Source: a phage. Taken from it: a DNA stretch of 64,000 bases. Position 1 is the first letter of the stretch; each line of letters begins with the position of its first letter. Made by a program: the position numbers and the translations under genes. A model generated the notes under the pieces. The model saw only the letters and a list, made by a program, of their open reading frames with translations. It was not told the DNA's origin and did no database searches. Positions 61 to 64,000 of this stretch are shown piece by piece. The stretch is from the sequence record OZ317122.1. The stretch is one strand, 5' to 3'.

Positions 61-115
61 GTAATTTCCTTCAATTCAAATGAGATTTAATTTTATAACT
101 AATTTAATAAAGCAA

Positions 116-36231: not shown

Positions 36232-36261
36232 CCAAAAAGCCCCAACCTTTTGGTCGGGGCT
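36232..36261 (-). terminator. rho-independent terminator
   Basis: Minus-strand RNA gccccgaccaaaagguuggggc followed by UUUUU; near-identical to 36790..36819. Confidence 0.7.
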
Positions 36262-36268
36262 AAGAATG

Positions 36269-36742
36269 TTATTTGATTTGTTTAGCAGACCAAATGCGGT
36301 CTTTAATAATTTTTTGGATGTCTTCAACATACTCAAGAGAGTGAACATGTGGGTTATCTTTGAAACTATAAGCACGAGCTAGCTTTTGGCCTTCAGTTTT
36401 GATTACTAAAAGCTCTTTAAGGATAGCTTCATATTTGGAGATAATTCCTTTAACAATATTTTTCTCTTGTGTGACTTTAGGATCTGCTTTAGGAGCAGGT
36501 TTACCTGAAGCCTTTGCAAAAGCAGCTCCAGTAGCAACTAAACTTTTCCAAGCCATACTAACTGCATTCCCTGTAAATCCTTCGGCTTTCATATCACGAG
36601 CAAATTGGAATCGTGATTCATCGGAAGCATCTTTATAGGAATATTTACCCGCGGCAATGGCAGCTTTTGCAACAGCTTGAATTTCAGTGCTAGATGCTTC
36701 ATTTAACACCGCTTCATTTAAAAATTGAGTATATGATTTCAT
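36269..36742 (-). CDS. internal-protein-like capsid-targeted protein (157 aa)
   Basis: N-terminus MKSYTQFLNE resembles T4 internal-protein leader with LxE protease-site motifs; own late promoter; flanked by terminators. Confidence 0.55.
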   Translation of the reverse strand: MKSYTQFLNEAVLNEASSTEIQAVAKAAIAAGKYSYKDASDESRFQFARDMKAEGFTGNAVSMAWKSLVATGAAFAKASGKPAPKADPKVTQEKNIVKGIISKYEAILKELLVIKTEGQKLARAYSFKDNPHVHSLEYVEDIQKIIKDRIWSAKQIK

Positions 36743-36778: not shown

Positions 36779-36786
36779 TATTTATA
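36779..36786 (-). promoter_or_regulatory. late promoter TATAAATA
   Basis: Plus-strand tatttata about 37 nt upstream of ATG at 36742. Confidence 0.6.
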
Positions 36787-36789
36787 CTA

Positions 36790-36819
36790 AAAAGCCCCAA
36801 CCTTTCGGTCGGGGCTAAG
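36790..36819 (-). terminator. rho-independent terminator ending the tRNA/stable-RNA transcription unit
   Basis: Minus-strand RNA gccccgaccgaaagguuggggc followed by UUUUU. Confidence 0.7.
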
Positions 36820-36820
36820 C

Positions 36821-37131
36821 CTTGCGGCAACCTTGTCGGGGTTCCACCTGCTAAGGCAAGTGTTTGTACGAAACGCCGGGATTCGAACCCGGTTATTAAG
36901 CAGTTGACGCTACTCAATATTTTTAAAAGGCCATATCTCGACCATATCCGAACGTTCCGTCAAAAACGCTACTCGGCTTACGGCAAAGATATTTCCTCGA
37001 ATCGATAATTCGGTGCGCCGTTTCTGCTGTGATATAAGGGGACATTAACAAAACATAAAGATTTATTAATACCAGTCCTTAAACAGGGAACATCAGTCCG
37101 ACGACTTGCCGGTAGCGACCCGGCTTCTTGT
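36821..37131 (-). ncRNA. candidate stable RNA region between tRNA-Arg and terminator, containing a tRNA-like T-arm
   Basis: No ORF; minus-strand ccgggTTCGAATcccgg with pairing flanks cggaacg/cgtttcg but no proper anticodon arm. Confidence 0.3.
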
Positions 37132-37207
37132 CTGGTCGAGGCAGTAGGGATCGAACCTACGACCCAGGACTTAGAAGGTCCTTGCTCTTCCTTCTGAGCT
37201 ATGCCTC
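37132..37207 (-). tRNA. tRNA-Arg (anticodon TCT)
   Basis: Cloverleaf: acceptor CGAGGCA/TGCCTCG, anticodon loop CTTCTAA, T-arm GTAGGTTCGATCCCTAC, CCA encoded. Confidence 0.85.
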
Positions 37208-37211
37208 GTAT

Positions 37212-37286
37212 TTGGCGGACGTGATAGGATTCGAACCTATAACCAATCGCTTAACAGGCGATCGCTCTGCCATTGAGCTACACATC
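37212..37286 (-). tRNA. tRNA-Asn (anticodon GTT)
   Basis: D-stem GCTC/GAGC, anticodon stem ATCGC/GCGAT with loop CTGTTAA, T-arm ATAGGTTCGAATCCTAT, CCA encoded. Confidence 0.8.
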
Positions 37287-37290
37287 CAAA

Positions 37291-37377
37291 TTGGTGGGGA
37301 GTGGTGGAGTCGAACCACCCGAGTCGCAATGACAATGGATTTACAGTCCACACCGCTACCTCTACGGGATAACTCCC
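37291..37377 (-). tRNA. tRNA-Tyr (anticodon GTA), long variable arm
   Basis: Anticodon stem GTGGA/TCCAT with loop CTGTAAA; T-arm GGTGGTTCGACTCCACC; 87 nt; D-arm pairing less clean. Confidence 0.7.
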
Positions 37378-37387
37378 CAAATTAATT

Positions 37388-37462
37388 TGGTGGCCCTGGG
37401 TGGAATTGAACCACCATCTGGCGATTATGAGTCGCTTGCTTGAACCTTCCAGCTACAGGGCC
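37388..37462 (-). tRNA. tRNA with CAT anticodon (Met or lysidine-type Ile, as T4 tRNA-Ile)
   Basis: Anticodon loop CTCATAA; T-arm GGTGGTTCAATTCCACC; CCA encoded. Confidence 0.8.
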
Positions 37463-37463
37463 T

Positions 37464-37539
37464 TGGTGCTGATTGACGGAATCGAACCGCCGACCTTCTC
37501 ATTACAAGTGAGTTGCTCTACCTACTGAGCTAAATCAGC
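37464..37539 (-). tRNA. tRNA-Thr (anticodon TGT)
   Basis: D-arm TAGCTCAGTAGGTAGAGC, anticodon loop CTTGTAA, T-arm GGCGGTTCGATTCCGTC. Confidence 0.85.
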
Positions 37540-37544
37540 AAAAC

Positions 37545-37634
37545 TGGCGGAGGCGATAGGATTTGAACCTATGAGTCGCCGGAGCGACTGCCGGTTTTCA
37601 AGACCGGTGCATTAAACCACTCTGCCACGCCTCC
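37545..37634 (-). tRNA. tRNA-Ser (anticodon TGA), long variable arm
   Basis: Anticodon stem CCGGT/ACCGG with loop CTTGAAA; long variable arm; T-arm ATAGGTTCAAATCCTAT. Confidence 0.85.
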
Positions 37635-37636
37635 AG

Positions 37637-37710
37637 TCTCCGTGGCAGGATTTGAACCTACGACATTCTGCTCCCAAAGCAGACGCTCTACCAAACTGAG
37701 CTACACGAAG
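37637..37710 (-). tRNA. tRNA-Pro (anticodon TGG), 3' CCA not encoded
   Basis: Anticodon loop TTGGGAG; acceptor CTTCGTG/CACGGAG; only 2 nt separate it from tRNA-Ser. Confidence 0.8.
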
Positions 37711-37720
37711 TAAATTAAAT

Positions 37721-37794
<74 letters not shown>

Positions 37795-37799
37795 AAATT

Positions 37800-37886
37800 T
37801 GGTGCGAGAAGTGGGACTCGAACCCACAAGGAAATCATTCCGCAGCATTTTAAGTGCTGTGCCTTTACCAATTTGACCATTCTCGC
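37800..37886 (-). tRNA. tRNA-Leu (anticodon TAA), long variable arm
   Basis: Anticodon stem CAGCA/TGCTG with loop CTTAAAA; T-arm GTGGGTTCGAGTCCCAC. Confidence 0.85.
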
Positions 37887-37892
37887 GCTATA

Positions 37893-38501
37893 TTATTTAT
37901 TACGTGAAAAAGACTGTTCTATCAATTCTGGACACTTTCGTTCTATCCATTTTCTAGCTTTTTGTGGGCTTATACCTATTATTTTAGCAGCTTTACTAAC
38001 CCATCCAAATTTAGAATAATCGATTTTAACTAATTCTTCGTAAATTTCATCAGTTAAAATCTTTTCATTAATATTTACCAGTAAATGATATAATTTATTA
38101 TCATTAGCAATTTTAATGAATCTTTTATAGTTTCCGCCTTTACTTAAACCTAATGAAGTAATTGCAGATGATATAGTAGCCGAATTTAATAGTGCGTTTA
38201 AAATTTCTTCATCACTAACATTATAACGCTTTCTATTATTTTTAATATTTTTACCAGCAAAAGTATCAGTTTGCGAATGGCAATTTGGACATAATAATCT
38301 TAAATTTGATTTAAGATGATTTTTGTTATTTCCATCAATATGGTCTAATTGTAGAACAATATGCTTATTTTGCCATTTTGAAATTTTACAAATTGCACAC
38401 TCATATGGAAAAATATTTTCTTTTATTATTTTGTCTTTTAGCTTTCCTGTACTAAAATTTGGATGTTTTCCTTCAAAAATTTCAGCTAATTTAGTATCCA
38501 T
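37893..38501 (-). mobile_element. freestanding HNH homing endonuclease adjacent to tRNA cluster
   Basis: HNH/zinc motif LDHIDGNNKNH...LRLLCPNCH; trimmed to ATG at 38499-38501; stop 7 nt from tRNA-Leu. Confidence 0.7.
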
Positions 38502-38611
38502 AATATGATTCCCAATTATTAACAAAGGCTCTTAAGCAAGAACCCTTGATGATAGAGGGTATTAATCAGTGCGATATGAGTTAATAATAACAAATAATTC
38601 TTAAAGCATAT

Positions 38612-60998: not shown

Positions 60999-64000
<3,002 letters not shown>

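What the first reader, a model, noticed from the sequence alone, without database searches (positions are those of the whole stretch)
36821..37131. About 310 nt of non-coding sequence with a tRNA-like T-arm between tRNA-Arg and the terminator
No ORF is present. The minus-strand transcript contains ccgggTTCGAATcccgg flanked by sequences that can pair as an acceptor-like stem (cggaacg with cgtttcg), but no canonical D or anticodon arm. This may correspond to the T4 stable species 1/2 RNAs of unknown function, or to a degenerate tRNA. Its position inside the tRNA operon means it would be processed by the same RNase P/RNase E machinery.
Basis: partly seen in the sequence, partly recalled or inferred. 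Interest (0 to 1): 0.5.

Follow-up and report, generated by a model that had tools for sequence, protein, structure and literature searches.

The report
T4 stable RNAs rnaC and rnaD
This stretch holds the two small stable RNAs of T4-like phages (species 1 and 2, known since the 1970s but still of unknown function), and comparing phages shows that species 1 is a tRNA-shaped RNA whose two side-arm loops appear to base-pair with each other.

Summary
The window comes from a Tequatrovirus. The flagged 311 nt is not an unknown element. It is the orthologue of T4 rnaD (species 2 RNA; window 37131..37012, minus strand) followed by rnaC (species 1 RNA; 37005..36867), a 50-nt trailer and the operon terminator (36816..36793).

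The proposed acceptor pairing (cggaacg/cgtttcg) is not supported. It shows no compensatory change in 19 sequences and costs 13 kcal/mol.

Thirty distinct rnaC sequences from at least 8 Tevenvirinae lineages support a different fold:
- a terminal stem made by the true 5' and 3' ends
- a long hairpin in the D-arm position
- a 10-bp arm with a 6-nt loop
- a T-arm

The apical loops of the long hairpin and the 10-bp arm are complementary in 30/30 sequences (UUGACG/CGUCAA). They changed together in two separate lineages (UUGAUG/CAUCAA and UUGGCG/CGCCAA), which argues for a kissing interaction.

rnaC always sits in a tRNA slot of the phage tRNA array. rnaD is a separable, faster-evolving hairpin RNA with a hypervariable tip.

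Function remains unknown in the literature I could read. A tRNA-mimic decoy role is my inference, not a result. Entity: already known. Rfam has no family for either RNA.

The parts
37133..37208 (-). tRNA-Arg(UCU), the last canonical tRNA of the array; its encoded CCA ends 1 nt before rnaD
   Evidence: ARAGORN; Rfam tRNA model, 65.8 bits
37012..37131 (-). rnaD (species 2 RNA) orthologue, 120 nt
   Evidence: Aligned to the T4 misc_RNA rnaD. It is 84.7% identical to T4 and 100% identical to phage G9062. 735 phage records match it.
37108..37124 (-). rnaD 5' hairpin: GCCGG / loop GUCGCUA / CCGGC. The loop is invariant. The closing pair covaries (A-U 12, G-C 4, G-U 2).
37013..37105 (-). rnaD long hairpin. 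The base helix is invariant (GUCGUCG with CGGCG-AC). The mid-stem shows compensatory changes. The distal tip (about 37077..37035) is hypervariable, with at least 4 versions, two of which cannot be aligned to the others.
37006..37011 (-). 6-nt spacer (GAAUUA) between rnaD and rnaC
   Evidence: T4 annotation mapped through alignment A1
36867..37005 (-). rnaC (species 1 RNA) orthologue, 139 nt; a tRNA-shaped four-arm RNA
   Evidence: Aligned to the T4 misc_RNA rnaC. Covariance model R1 scores it 155.6 bits and finds a single copy in the window. MFE -50.2 kcal/mol, z = -4.55.
36998..37004 (-). rnaC terminal (acceptor-like) stem, 5' strand CGAUUCG (nt 2-8)
   Evidence: Pairs with nt 131-137. Pair 4/135 is A-U in 12 and G-C in 18 sequences. 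Two U.U mismatches become U-A and C-G in Tegunavirus.
36869..36875 (-). rnaC terminal stem, 3' strand CGUUUCG (nt 131-137).
36928..36997 (-). rnaC long irregular hairpin in the D-arm position (nt 9-78, about 25 bp); contains cggaacg
   Evidence: 15 of its 25 pairs show double changes. The same arm appears in independent MFE folds of four diverged members.
36958..36963 (-). Loop 1, UUGACG (nt 43-48): apical loop of the long hairpin and proposed kissing partner of loop 2
36920..36927 (-). U/A-rich single-stranded linker (nt 79-86, UUUAAAAA)
36894..36919 (-). 10-bp arm in the anticodon-arm position (nt 87-112), with a 6-nt loop
   Evidence: 8 of its 10 pairs show double changes
36904..36909 (-). 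Loop 2, CGUCAA (nt 97-102): complementary to loop 1
   Evidence: All 6 inter-loop pairs are standard in 30/30 sequences. A-U changes to G-C in 5 sequences and C-G to U-A in 2, with no one-sided change.
36876..36892 (-). T-arm: CCGGG / UUCGAAU / CCCGG (nt 114-130)
   Evidence: 2 of 5 pairs covary and 100% are paired
36864..36866 (-). CAA immediately after the annotated 3' end, in the position of a tRNA's CCA. It is invariant while the sequence further downstream diverges.
   Evidence: 26 of 26 distinct flank types
36817..36866 (-). 3' trailer with small hairpins (CACUUGC/GCAGGUG; GCC-GCAA-GGC)
   Evidence: Fold. It is retained directly after rnaD in Dhakavirus IME341, which lacks rnaC.
36788..36816 (-). 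Intrinsic terminator of the tRNA/stable-RNA operon (10-bp stem, 7 G-C pairs, then a U tract)
   Evidence: PMC2330249 says transcription terminates after the species I gene

Best explanation
The interval encodes the two classical T-even 'stable RNAs': rnaD (species 2) and rnaC (species 1). They are transcribed on the minus strand as the distal end of the phage tRNA operon and cut out of the polycistronic precursor.

Shown here:
- rnaC is a 139-nt RNA with tRNA topology. Its 5' and 3' ends form a 7-position acceptor-like stem that abuts a 5-bp T-arm.
- The D-arm is replaced by a hairpin of about 25 bp, and the anticodon arm by a 10-bp stem with a 6-nt loop.
- The 6-nt apical loops of those two arms are Watson-Crick complementary and covary. 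They most likely form a 6-bp kissing helix that locks the body of the molecule and leaves no free anticodon.
- rnaC sits in a tRNA slot of the array in every lineage examined.

Inferred:
- Its 5' end is made by RNase P acting on the acceptor/T-arm minihelix. Its 3' end is made by tRNA-type trimming, and the invariant CAA after the annotated end marks that site.
- rnaD is an independent module: a 5' hairpin plus a long hairpin with a conserved base and a hypervariable tip. Its 3' end is set by the cut that frees rnaC.

Function (inference only, about 0.25):
- rnaC presents a tRNA 'top half' to tRNA-binding proteins while being useless for decoding. That would make it a decoy or sponge for a host tRNA-directed factor such as a defence nuclease, an acceptor-end modifier or a processing enzyme.
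- rnaD's fast-evolving tip, and a reported host-specific adaptive SNP in it, fit a host-interaction role.

The confidence given (0.8) is for identity, architecture and biogenesis, not for function.
For: Identity:
- The T4 record annotates rnaD and rnaC after tRNA-Arg, and the window aligns to them.
- 748 phage records match rnaC and 735 match rnaD.

Structure of rnaC:
- The RNAalifold consensus equals the single-sequence MFE.
- On 30 distinct sequences 92.4% of cells are paired and 28 of 53 pairs show double changes. 0 of 500 shuffles reach these values, and slid controls give about 40% paired.
- Diverged members fold to the same four arms independently.

Kissing helix:
- It is paired in 30/30 sequences, with two independent compensatory events and no one-sided change.
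- Metagenome sequences show only the same three loop pairs.

tRNA slot:
- A real tRNA lies 5-6 nt upstream and tRNA-Trp or tRNA-Gly lies 6-11 nt downstream in Karam-, Winkler-, Teguna-, Gelderland- and Kanagawavirus and in Klebsiella and Erwinia phages.
- Model R1 aligns ordinary tRNAs arm for arm once the long arm is deleted.

Constraint:
- rnaC is at least 95% identical in 684 of 748 records, including RB69 at 99.3%. Only 245 of 735 rnaD matches reach 95%.

Separability:
- Dhakavirus IME341 and Gaprivervirus UPEC01 have rnaD without rnaC. Six or more genera have rnaC without rnaD.

Expression and processing in T4 (literature):
- Both RNAs accumulate late and were validated by Northern blot (PMC9697503).
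- One primary transcript covers the tRNAs and both RNAs (PMC2330249).
- A convergent SNP arose in rnaD in phage lines evolved on ECOR34 (PMC12685909).
Against: - No experiment or computation here addresses function. The reviews and papers I could read say it is unknown.
- The kissing helix rests on two compensatory events. Four of its six pairs never vary, so conservation for another reason, such as protein binding to both loops, is not excluded. Covariation also cannot tell intramolecular from intermolecular pairing.
- The terminal stem carries two U.U mismatches in 28 of 30 sequences, so it is a weak acceptor stem.
- The T-loop departs from the tRNA consensus in Kanagawa- and Winklervirus (UGCAUGC, UGCAUUC).
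- The mature ends are taken from the T4 annotation, not measured here. CCA is not encoded; CAA stands in its place.
- The rnaD fold is thermodynamically unremarkable (z from -0.8 to -2.5) and its base helix never varies.
Confidence: 0.8

Rival explanations
1. rnaC is a decayed tRNA gene: a pseudo-tRNA that is still processed because it retains an acceptor/T-arm minihelix, but has no function of its own.
For: - It occupies a tRNA slot and has tRNA topology.
- tRNA finders sometimes call part of it a tRNA.
- From memory, not checked here: T4 deletions of the tRNA region are viable on laboratory hosts.
- It is cleanly absent from Dhakavirus IME341.
Against: - It is far more conserved than its neighbour rnaD: at least 95% identity in 684 of 748 records, against 245 of 735 for rnaD.
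- Every helix is kept by compensatory change across at least 8 lineages, including a long-range loop-loop helix.
- The long arm and the two loops have no counterpart in any tRNA.
Confidence: 0.1
2. One reading: the 3' ~96 nt form a tRNA-like molecule whose acceptor stem is cggaacg paired with cgtttcg.
For: - The 8-bp pairing exists in Tequatrovirus sequences.
- ARAGORN and annotation pipelines call this fold a tRNA: tRNA-OTHER, tRNA-Phe, tRNA-Lys or tRNA-Met.
- There is a weak Rfam tRNA-Sec match of 16.6 bits, E = 1.8.
Against: - It has no compensatory change. Pair 49/138 is broken in 10 of 19 sequences, and every measure falls below the shuffles.
- It is 13.3 kcal/mol worse than the MFE.
- The same columns are explained by covarying pairs elsewhere: U-G, U-A and A-U at 42/49, and A-U or G-C at 4/138.
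- The T4-annotated 5' end lies 45 nt upstream of that stem.
Confidence: 0.03
3. The two complementary loops pair between molecules rather than within one. rnaC would then form dimers or rings, as phi29 pRNA does, and act as an oligomeric scaffold.
For: - Covariation fits inter- and intramolecular pairing equally well.
- The loops sit on different arms of a junction.
Against: - Nothing is known in T4 that needs an RNA ring. From memory, T4 DNA packaging works in vitro without RNA.
- The 8-nt flexible linker and the bulges in the long arm could allow intramolecular closure. This is inference, not modelled.
Confidence: 0.15
4. The RNAs are cis-acting parts of the operon (3' stabilisers, processing guides or a terminator-proximal buffer for the upstream tRNAs) rather than trans-acting molecules.
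For: - In T4-type genomes they are the last elements before the terminator.
- In T2-type phages rnaD directly follows a coding gene, where its 5' hairpin could stabilise that mRNA.
Against: - In at least five other lineages rnaC lies in the middle of the array with tRNAs on both sides.
- Both accumulate as discrete stable RNAs late in infection (PMC9697503).
- A stabiliser would not need the near-complete sequence constraint, or the conserved loop pairing, seen in rnaC.
Confidence: 0.1
5. The region encodes small proteins, as annotated ('hypothetical protein x2') in many GenBank records.
For: TTG-start ORFs of 53 and 42 aa overlap the interval, and records carry such annotations.
Against: - Substitutions follow RNA pairing, not codons.
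- The 53-aa ORF runs through the trailer and the terminator.
- In other genera a tRNA follows rnaC within 6-11 nt, so the ORF cannot be conserved.
- The curated T4 record and Northern data define RNAs here.
Confidence: 0.02

Closest known systems
Bacteriophage T4 rnaC (species 1 RNA) and rnaD (species 2 RNA)
   Same: They are orthologous in sequence and in position: tRNA-Arg, rnaD, rnaC, terminator. rnaC differs from T4 at 2 of 139 positions and rnaD is about 85% identical.
   Different: Only the context differs. This phage lacks segB and tRNA-Gln. It carries tRNA-Met(CAU), Tyr and Asn before tRNA-Arg, an HNH gene next to tRNA-Leu, and an extra 157-aa ORF after the terminator. The rnaD tip is a different variant from T4's.
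Canonical tRNA (Rfam RF00005)
   Same: rnaC has a four-arm junction and an acceptor-like stem formed by the two ends, stacked next to a 5-bp T-arm with a UUCGAAU loop. It sits in a tRNA array with tRNA-like spacers. The rnaC model aligns tRNAs arm for arm.
   Different: There is no D-arm; a ~25-bp hairpin replaces it. The 'anticodon' arm has 10 bp and a 6-nt loop that is occupied by loop-loop pairing. CAA is encoded where CCA would be. The acceptor stem has two U.U mismatches. ARAGORN and RF00005 do not detect it.
tRNA-like domains of non-decoding RNAs: the tmRNA TLD, bacterial and phage Y-RNA-like YrlA, and viral 3' tRNA-like structures
   Same: The concept is the same: a tRNA 'top half' (acceptor plus T-arm) is kept for recognition by tRNA enzymes while the decoding half is replaced. 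This comparison rests on established knowledge of those families.
   Different: ARAGORN finds no tmRNA tag or fold. The Rfam YrlA, tmRNA and TLS models do not match rnaC; the only YrlA match, at 19 bits, lies on the true tRNAs. There is no Ro-binding stem.
phi29 packaging RNA (pRNA)
   Same: A phage-encoded structured RNA of 120-170 nt in which two loops on different arms are complementary and covary among relatives (established knowledge).
   Different: pRNA loops pair between molecules through 4 bp to form a ring on the portal. Nothing here shows oligomerisation, there is no sequence or Rfam similarity, and T4 packaging is not known to need RNA.

Membership tests
T4 rnaC (species 1 RNA) | Sequence homology to the annotated T4 misc_RNA rnaC over its full length | tested here: met
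   139 of 139 nt align with 2 differences. T4 records match at 98.6%.
T4 rnaC (species 1 RNA) | Position at the distal end of the tRNA operon, after rnaD and before the terminator, on the same strand | tested here: met
T4 rnaC (species 1 RNA) | Accumulates as a discrete stable RNA of about 140 nt during infection | not testable with these tools
   Reported for T4 itself by Northern blot (PMC9697503). Not measured for this phage.
T4 rnaD (species 2 RNA) | Sequence homology to the annotated T4 misc_RNA rnaD, directly after tRNA-Arg | tested here: met
   84.7% identity over 118 nt to T4. The conserved ends and shared fold topology are present.
canonical tRNA | 7-bp acceptor stem formed by the 5' and 3' ends, abutting a 5-bp T-stem with a 7-nt T-loop | tested here: inconclusive
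   The T-arm is met: 100% paired and covarying. The acceptor stem has 5 standard pairs plus 2 U.U in 28 of 30 sequences, and 7 of 7 only in Tegunavirus. The T-loop consensus is lost in Kanagawa- and Winklervirus.
canonical tRNA | D-arm, and a 5-bp anticodon stem with a 7-nt loop that presents an anticodon | tested here: not met
   A ~25-bp hairpin replaces the D-arm. The other arm has 10 bp and a 6-nt loop that pairs with loop 1. The loop triplets differ between lineages (GUC, AUC, GCC).
canonical tRNA | Detected by tRNA covariance or heuristic models | tested here: not met
   ARAGORN and Rfam RF00005 find the 9 true tRNAs but not rnaC or rnaD. Occasional ARAGORN or pipeline calls in other phages cover only the 3' 96 nt, in the fold that covariation rejects.
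canonical tRNA | 3' CCA end (encoded or added) and aminoacylation | not testable with these tools
   CAA is encoded in place of CCA in 26 of 26 flank types. Post-transcriptional CCA addition and charging would need 3'-end mapping.
tmRNA | tRNA-like domain plus a tag-peptide reading frame and pseudoknots | tested here: not met
   ARAGORN reports no tmRNA. The only Rfam match is 10 bits to permuted tmRNA, on the T-loop alone.
YrlA / Y-RNA-like | Match to Rfam RF02553; a Ro-binding terminal helix plus a tRNA-like module | tested here: not met
   No match on rnaC or rnaD. The 19-bit match lies on tRNA-Arg and tRNA-Asn.
phi29-type pRNA | Two covarying complementary loops that mediate intermolecular ring formation | tested here: inconclusive
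   The complementary, covarying loops are met. Intermolecular pairing and ring formation cannot be tested here. There is no Rfam match.

The most novel reading that the evidence does not exclude
rnaC is a self-locking tRNA mimic. A conserved 6-bp kissing helix between the D-position arm and the anticodon-position arm closes the body of a tRNA-shaped RNA, so only the acceptor/T-arm 'top half' stays exposed, ending in an invariant NCAA in place of NCCA. Tevenvirinae would use it, together with the fast-evolving rnaD, as a decoy against host tRNA-directed defence or processing factors. Either reading would give a first mechanistic handle on RNAs whose function has been unknown for about 50 years.
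Probability: 0.2. Interest if true: 0.75.

Novelty: already known. Interest (0 to 1): 0.35.

Why it matters
The element itself is a textbook T4 feature, so finding it again is not news. Three points have practical value.

1. Species 1 and 2 RNAs are among the few T4 gene products that still have no function. Reviews and omics papers from 2010, 2022 and 2025 all say so.

2. The comparative model built here turns 'stable RNA of unknown function' into specific experiments: loop and compensatory mutants, 3'-end mapping, and decoy tests. The model comprises the terminal stem, the long arm, the covarying loop-loop helix, the invariant CAA tail, and residence in a tRNA slot across at least 8 lineages. 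I could not check whether the loop-loop pairing was already proposed in the 1970s sequencing papers.

3. Rfam 15 has no family for either RNA. Genome pipelines therefore routinely mislabel them as hypothetical proteins or as odd tRNAs (tRNA-OTHER, Phe, Lys, Met). The 30-sequence alignment and covariance model made here would correct this in more than 700 phage records.

Tried and rejected
- First collection scan: I miscounted a spacer and it returned nothing. I corrected the pattern after local validation.
- Bacterial and archaeal genome scan: 27 hits, about the number I estimated for chance. All score 16 bits or less with model R1, against 155 for the window. No cellular homologue was found, within the limits of the pattern.
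- Metagenome scan: 12 true hits out of 37, all from lineages already sampled. No new loop variants.
- Aeromonas phage 44RR2.8t tRNA cluster: the model hits only ordinary tRNAs. rnaC was not detected in this non-Tevenvirinae relative. KVP40 and Acinetobacter phage 133 were not examined.
- Three more Enterobacter phages: these belong to known lineages.
- rnaD as a tRNA-like molecule: rejected. Its 5-bp/7-nt hairpin lies 5' of the 3'-end-pairing strand, and its loop GUCGCUA is not a T-loop. No tRNA or other Rfam match.
- rnaC loop 2 as an anticodon: rejected. The loop has 6 nt, its triplet differs between lineages, and it is paired to loop 1.
- Obligate rnaC-rnaD pairing: the rnaD loop GUCGCUA is complementary to the UAGCG motif in rnaC. 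I judged this unlikely, because each RNA occurs without the other in several genera.
- T-loop-like 11-mer at 63222-63232: no flanking stem, so a chance match.
- Literature: Miller et al. 2003 is not held. Searches for species 1 RNA, p2Sp1 and tRNA-like T4 RNAs found nothing beyond four papers. The original 1970s sequencing and processing papers could not be read, so anything I recall from them is marked as memory.
Full report
**What is in the interval**

The window is from a T4-like phage (Tequatrovirus). The 361 nt around the finding are 100% identical to phages such as vB_EcoM-fFiEco06 and Yersinia phage PYPS2T, and 732 phage records match. Nine tRNA genes lie on the minus strand at 37886..37133.

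The curated T4 reference record annotates two misc_RNA genes directly after tRNA-Arg. These are rnaD ('species 2 RNA', 119 nt) and rnaC ('species 1 RNA', 139 nt). A pairwise alignment maps them onto the window (sequence read), all on the minus strand:
- rnaD = 37131..37012
- a 6-nt spacer
- rnaC = 37005..36867
- a 50-nt trailer
- an intrinsic terminator at 36816..36793

**Checking the observation**

- The T-arm-like motif is real and unique. It is the only such motif in the tRNA region that lies outside a called tRNA.
- 'No ORF' is nearly right. There are only TTG-start ORFs of 53 and 42 aa, yet many GenBank records annotate them as 'hypothetical protein (x2)'.
- The proposed acceptor pairing, cggaacg with cgtttcg, exists in this sequence but is not the conserved structure (see below).

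**What the literature says**

- PMC3014915 (2010): the biological roles of RNAC and RNAD are unknown.
- PMC9697503 (2022): calls them RNAs of yet unknown function, classifies them as late, and validates them by Northern blot.
- PMC12685909 (2025): again calls the function unknown. It reports one convergent SNP, inside rnaD, in all lines of a T4-like phage evolved on the semi-permissive host ECOR34.
- PMC2330249: citing Broida and Abelson, describes a ~1.75-kb primary transcript that is the precursor of the eight tRNAs and of species I and II RNAs, and that terminates after the species I gene.

Rfam 15 has no family for either RNA. Only chance-level matches appear.

**Structure of rnaC**

I collected homologues from annotated phage records and from IMG/VR. 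This gave 30 distinct sequences from Tequatro-, Kanagawa-, Winkler-, Karam-, Teguna- and Gelderlandvirus and from Klebsiella, Erwinia, Serratia and Hafnia phages (alignment A4).

The RNAalifold consensus is identical to the MFE fold of the window sequence (-50.2 kcal/mol, z = -4.55). Its parts are:
- a terminal stem, nt 2-8 with 131-137
- an AGG/CCU helix that opens a long irregular hairpin (nt 9-78)
- a U/A-rich 8-nt linker
- a 10-bp stem with a 6-nt loop (nt 87-112)
- one unpaired nucleotide
- the T-arm (nt 114-130), which runs straight into the 3' strand of the terminal stem

On the 30 sequences, 92.4% of cells are paired and 28 of 53 pairs carry changes on both sides. No shuffle out of 500 reaches these values, and sliding the partners drops pairing to about 40%. 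Diverged members fold to the same four arms when folded alone.

It is broken at one pair in 10 of 19 sequences, scores below its own shuffles, and costs 13.3 kcal/mol. The same columns are explained better elsewhere. The G-to-A change in cggaacg converts a U.G pair to U-A inside the long hairpin (A-U in Tegunavirus). The U-to-C change in cgtttcg is matched by A-to-G at nt 4 of the 5' end. In Yersinia phage TG1 the terminal stem is a perfect 7 bp.

**A loop-loop helix**

The apical loop of the long hairpin is UUGACG (36963..36958). The loop of the 10-bp arm is CGUCAA (36909..36904). They are perfectly complementary.
- Both are unchanged in lineages whose flanking stems have diverged completely (Gelderlandvirus; L043).
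- In Tegunavirus they read UUGAUG and CAUCAA.
- In a clade of Klebsiella phages they read UUGGCG and CGCCAA.

All six inter-loop pairs are standard pairs in 30 of 30 sequences. There are two independent double changes and no one-sided change. Twelve further metagenomic copies show only these three loop pairs. Nearest-neighbour duplex energies are -4.1 to -7.6 kcal/mol.

I read this as a 6-bp kissing interaction. It is established knowledge that two fully paired 6-nt loops are sterically possible, as in the HIV TAR-TAR* complex. Two caveats apply. There are only two events, four pairs never vary, and covariation cannot tell intramolecular from intermolecular pairing. I also could not read the 1970s sequencing papers, so I do not know whether this pairing was noticed then.

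**Genomic logic of rnaC**

In every lineage rnaC sits inside the tRNA array, spaced as the tRNAs are from each other:
- A real tRNA ends 5-6 nt upstream in Kanagawa-, Karam- and Gelderlandvirus and in Klebsiella, Erwinia and Enterobacter phages.
- tRNA-Trp or tRNA-Gly starts 6-11 nt downstream in Winkler-, Teguna-, Karam- and Gelderlandvirus and in the Erwinia phage.

The rnaC covariance model (R1) finds one copy in the window, at 155.6 bits. In an Aeromonas T4-like phage it matches only ordinary tRNAs, at 16 bits or less, by deleting the long arm and aligning acceptor, anticodon arm and T-arm in order. So rnaC has tRNA topology with the D-arm replaced. It was not detected outside Tevenvirinae, nor in bacterial genomes within the limits of the pattern used.

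The three nucleotides after the annotated 3' end are CAA in all 26 distinct flank types, while the sequence beyond them diverges. This is where a tRNA carries CCA.

rnaC is under very strong constraint. It is at least 99% identical in 491 and 95-99% identical in 193 of 748 matching records, including RB69.

**rnaD**

rnaD evolves much faster. Only 46 of 735 records are at least 99% identical, and 222 are below 90%. It is confined to Tequatrovirus-like phages plus Dhaka- and Gaprivervirus.

All variants share one topology:
- a 5' hairpin with an invariant GUCGCUA loop
- a long hairpin whose base helix (GUCGUCG with CGGCG-AC) never varies
- a mid-stem with compensatory changes
- a tip that comes in at least four versions, two of them unalignable

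Support is moderate. 97.8% of cells are paired, and the covariation score and the count of doubly changed cells exceed all shuffles. But only 5 pairs covary, and folding energies are unremarkable (z from -0.8 to -2.5).

rnaD and rnaC are separable. Dhakavirus IME341 joins rnaD directly to the trailer and terminator, and Gaprivervirus UPEC01 has rnaD alone. Six or more genera have rnaC preceded by an ordinary tRNA instead of rnaD.

**How it most likely works**

Shown: the identity, the fold, the covarying loop pairing, the tRNA-slot position and the strong constraint.

Inferred from the architecture and from established tRNA biology:
- The acceptor/T-arm minihelix makes the 5' end of rnaC an RNase P site.
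- Its 3' end is trimmed as a tRNA trailer is.
- The 3' end of rnaD is set by the same cut.

Function is inference only. rnaC displays the half of a tRNA that processing enzymes and many tRNA-directed proteins recognise, while its decoding half is replaced and locked. That is the design of a mimic or decoy rather than a decoder. rnaD's hypervariable tip, and the host-specific adaptive SNP reported in it, fit an interaction with variable host factors. I put about 0.25 on the decoy idea.

The rivals are a functionless tRNA relic, a cis-acting operon element, and oligomer formation through the loops. None is excluded.

**Verdict**

As an entity it is already known. The specific acceptor stem proposed is wrong. 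What this analysis adds is a comparative structure with a covarying loop-loop helix, a defined phyletic range, and concrete experiments on an old open question.

Noticed in passing
window 36269-36742 (minus), flanked by 36793-36816 and 36238-36261: A 157-aa ORF (PHROG 2280, function unknown, no Pfam match) lies between two near-identical copies of the operon terminator. It has a T4 late-promoter-like TATAAATA at 36786..36779. T4 has a single terminator copy here and no such ORF, so this looks like a gene-cassette insertion with a duplicated terminator.
   Followed up: partly
window 37893-38525 (minus): A 210-aa HNH endonuclease ORF (PHROG 14736, E = 6e-124) ends 6 nt before tRNA-Leu. T4 and phage G9062 have tRNA-Gln at that position, and the window has no tRNA-Gln at all. 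This may be a homing-endonuclease gene that replaced or displaced a tRNA gene.
   Followed up: partly
window 37133-37462 (minus): This phage lacks segB and carries tRNA-Met(CAU), Tyr and Asn between tRNA-Thr and tRNA-Arg. That is the T2L/RB1/RB3-type arrangement, whose tRNA-Asn gene holds the preferred SegB cleavage site according to PMC2330249.
   Followed up: no
L004 about 372-447 (Kosakonia phage Kc304); L036 196-267 (Serratia phage LC53): In Winklervirus the slot just upstream of rnaC holds a tRNA-like sequence ending ...CAGCUCCCACCA. ARAGORN does not call it. One record labels it tRNA-Phe-GAA. It may be a second non-canonical tRNA-like RNA.
   Followed up: no
L028 (Dhakavirus IME341) 200-470; L030 (Gaprivervirus UPEC01) 348-460: IME341 has rnaD fused directly to the trailer and terminator, so rnaC is cleanly absent. 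It also has an extra ~70-nt segment between tRNA-Arg and rnaD. UPEC01 has an rnaD homologue with a compensated mid-stem (GCCUG/CAGGC) and no rnaC.
   Followed up: partly
phage records MK373779, NC_054919, PQ898399, L005 and many others: rnaC is widely mis-annotated, as tRNA-OTHER, tRNA-Lys, tRNA-Met or tRNA-Phe (covering only its 3' 96 nt) or as two 'hypothetical proteins'. rnaD is also labelled as a hypothetical protein, and in one record as 'Early E3 16 kDa glycoprotein'.
   Followed up: partly
window 36975..36967 and 36916..36908 (rnaC nt 32-40 and 91-99, minus strand): A 9-nt direct repeat, GAGUAGCGU, precedes each of the two kissing loops. Its UAGCG core is complementary to the invariant rnaD loop GUCGCUA. 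Possible explanations are an internal duplication, alternative pairings, or chance.
   Followed up: no
A4 columns 122-128 (Kanagawavirus and Winklervirus rows): In Kanagawa- and Winklervirus the rnaC T-loop reads UGCAUGC, UGCAUUC or UGCAUCC instead of UUCGAAU. It loses the U55 and A58 positions of a tRNA T-loop, while the stem covaries normally.
   Followed up: no
window 36817-36866 (minus): The trailer between rnaC and the terminator folds into small hairpins, including a GCAA tetraloop. It is conserved in T4 and retained in Dhakavirus, which lacks rnaC. I do not know whether it is more than a spacer.
   Followed up: no
window 63222-63232 (minus): An isolated GGTTCAAATCC match far from the tRNA cluster. 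It has no flanking stem and is not called by ARAGORN, so I judged it a chance match.
   Followed up: yes
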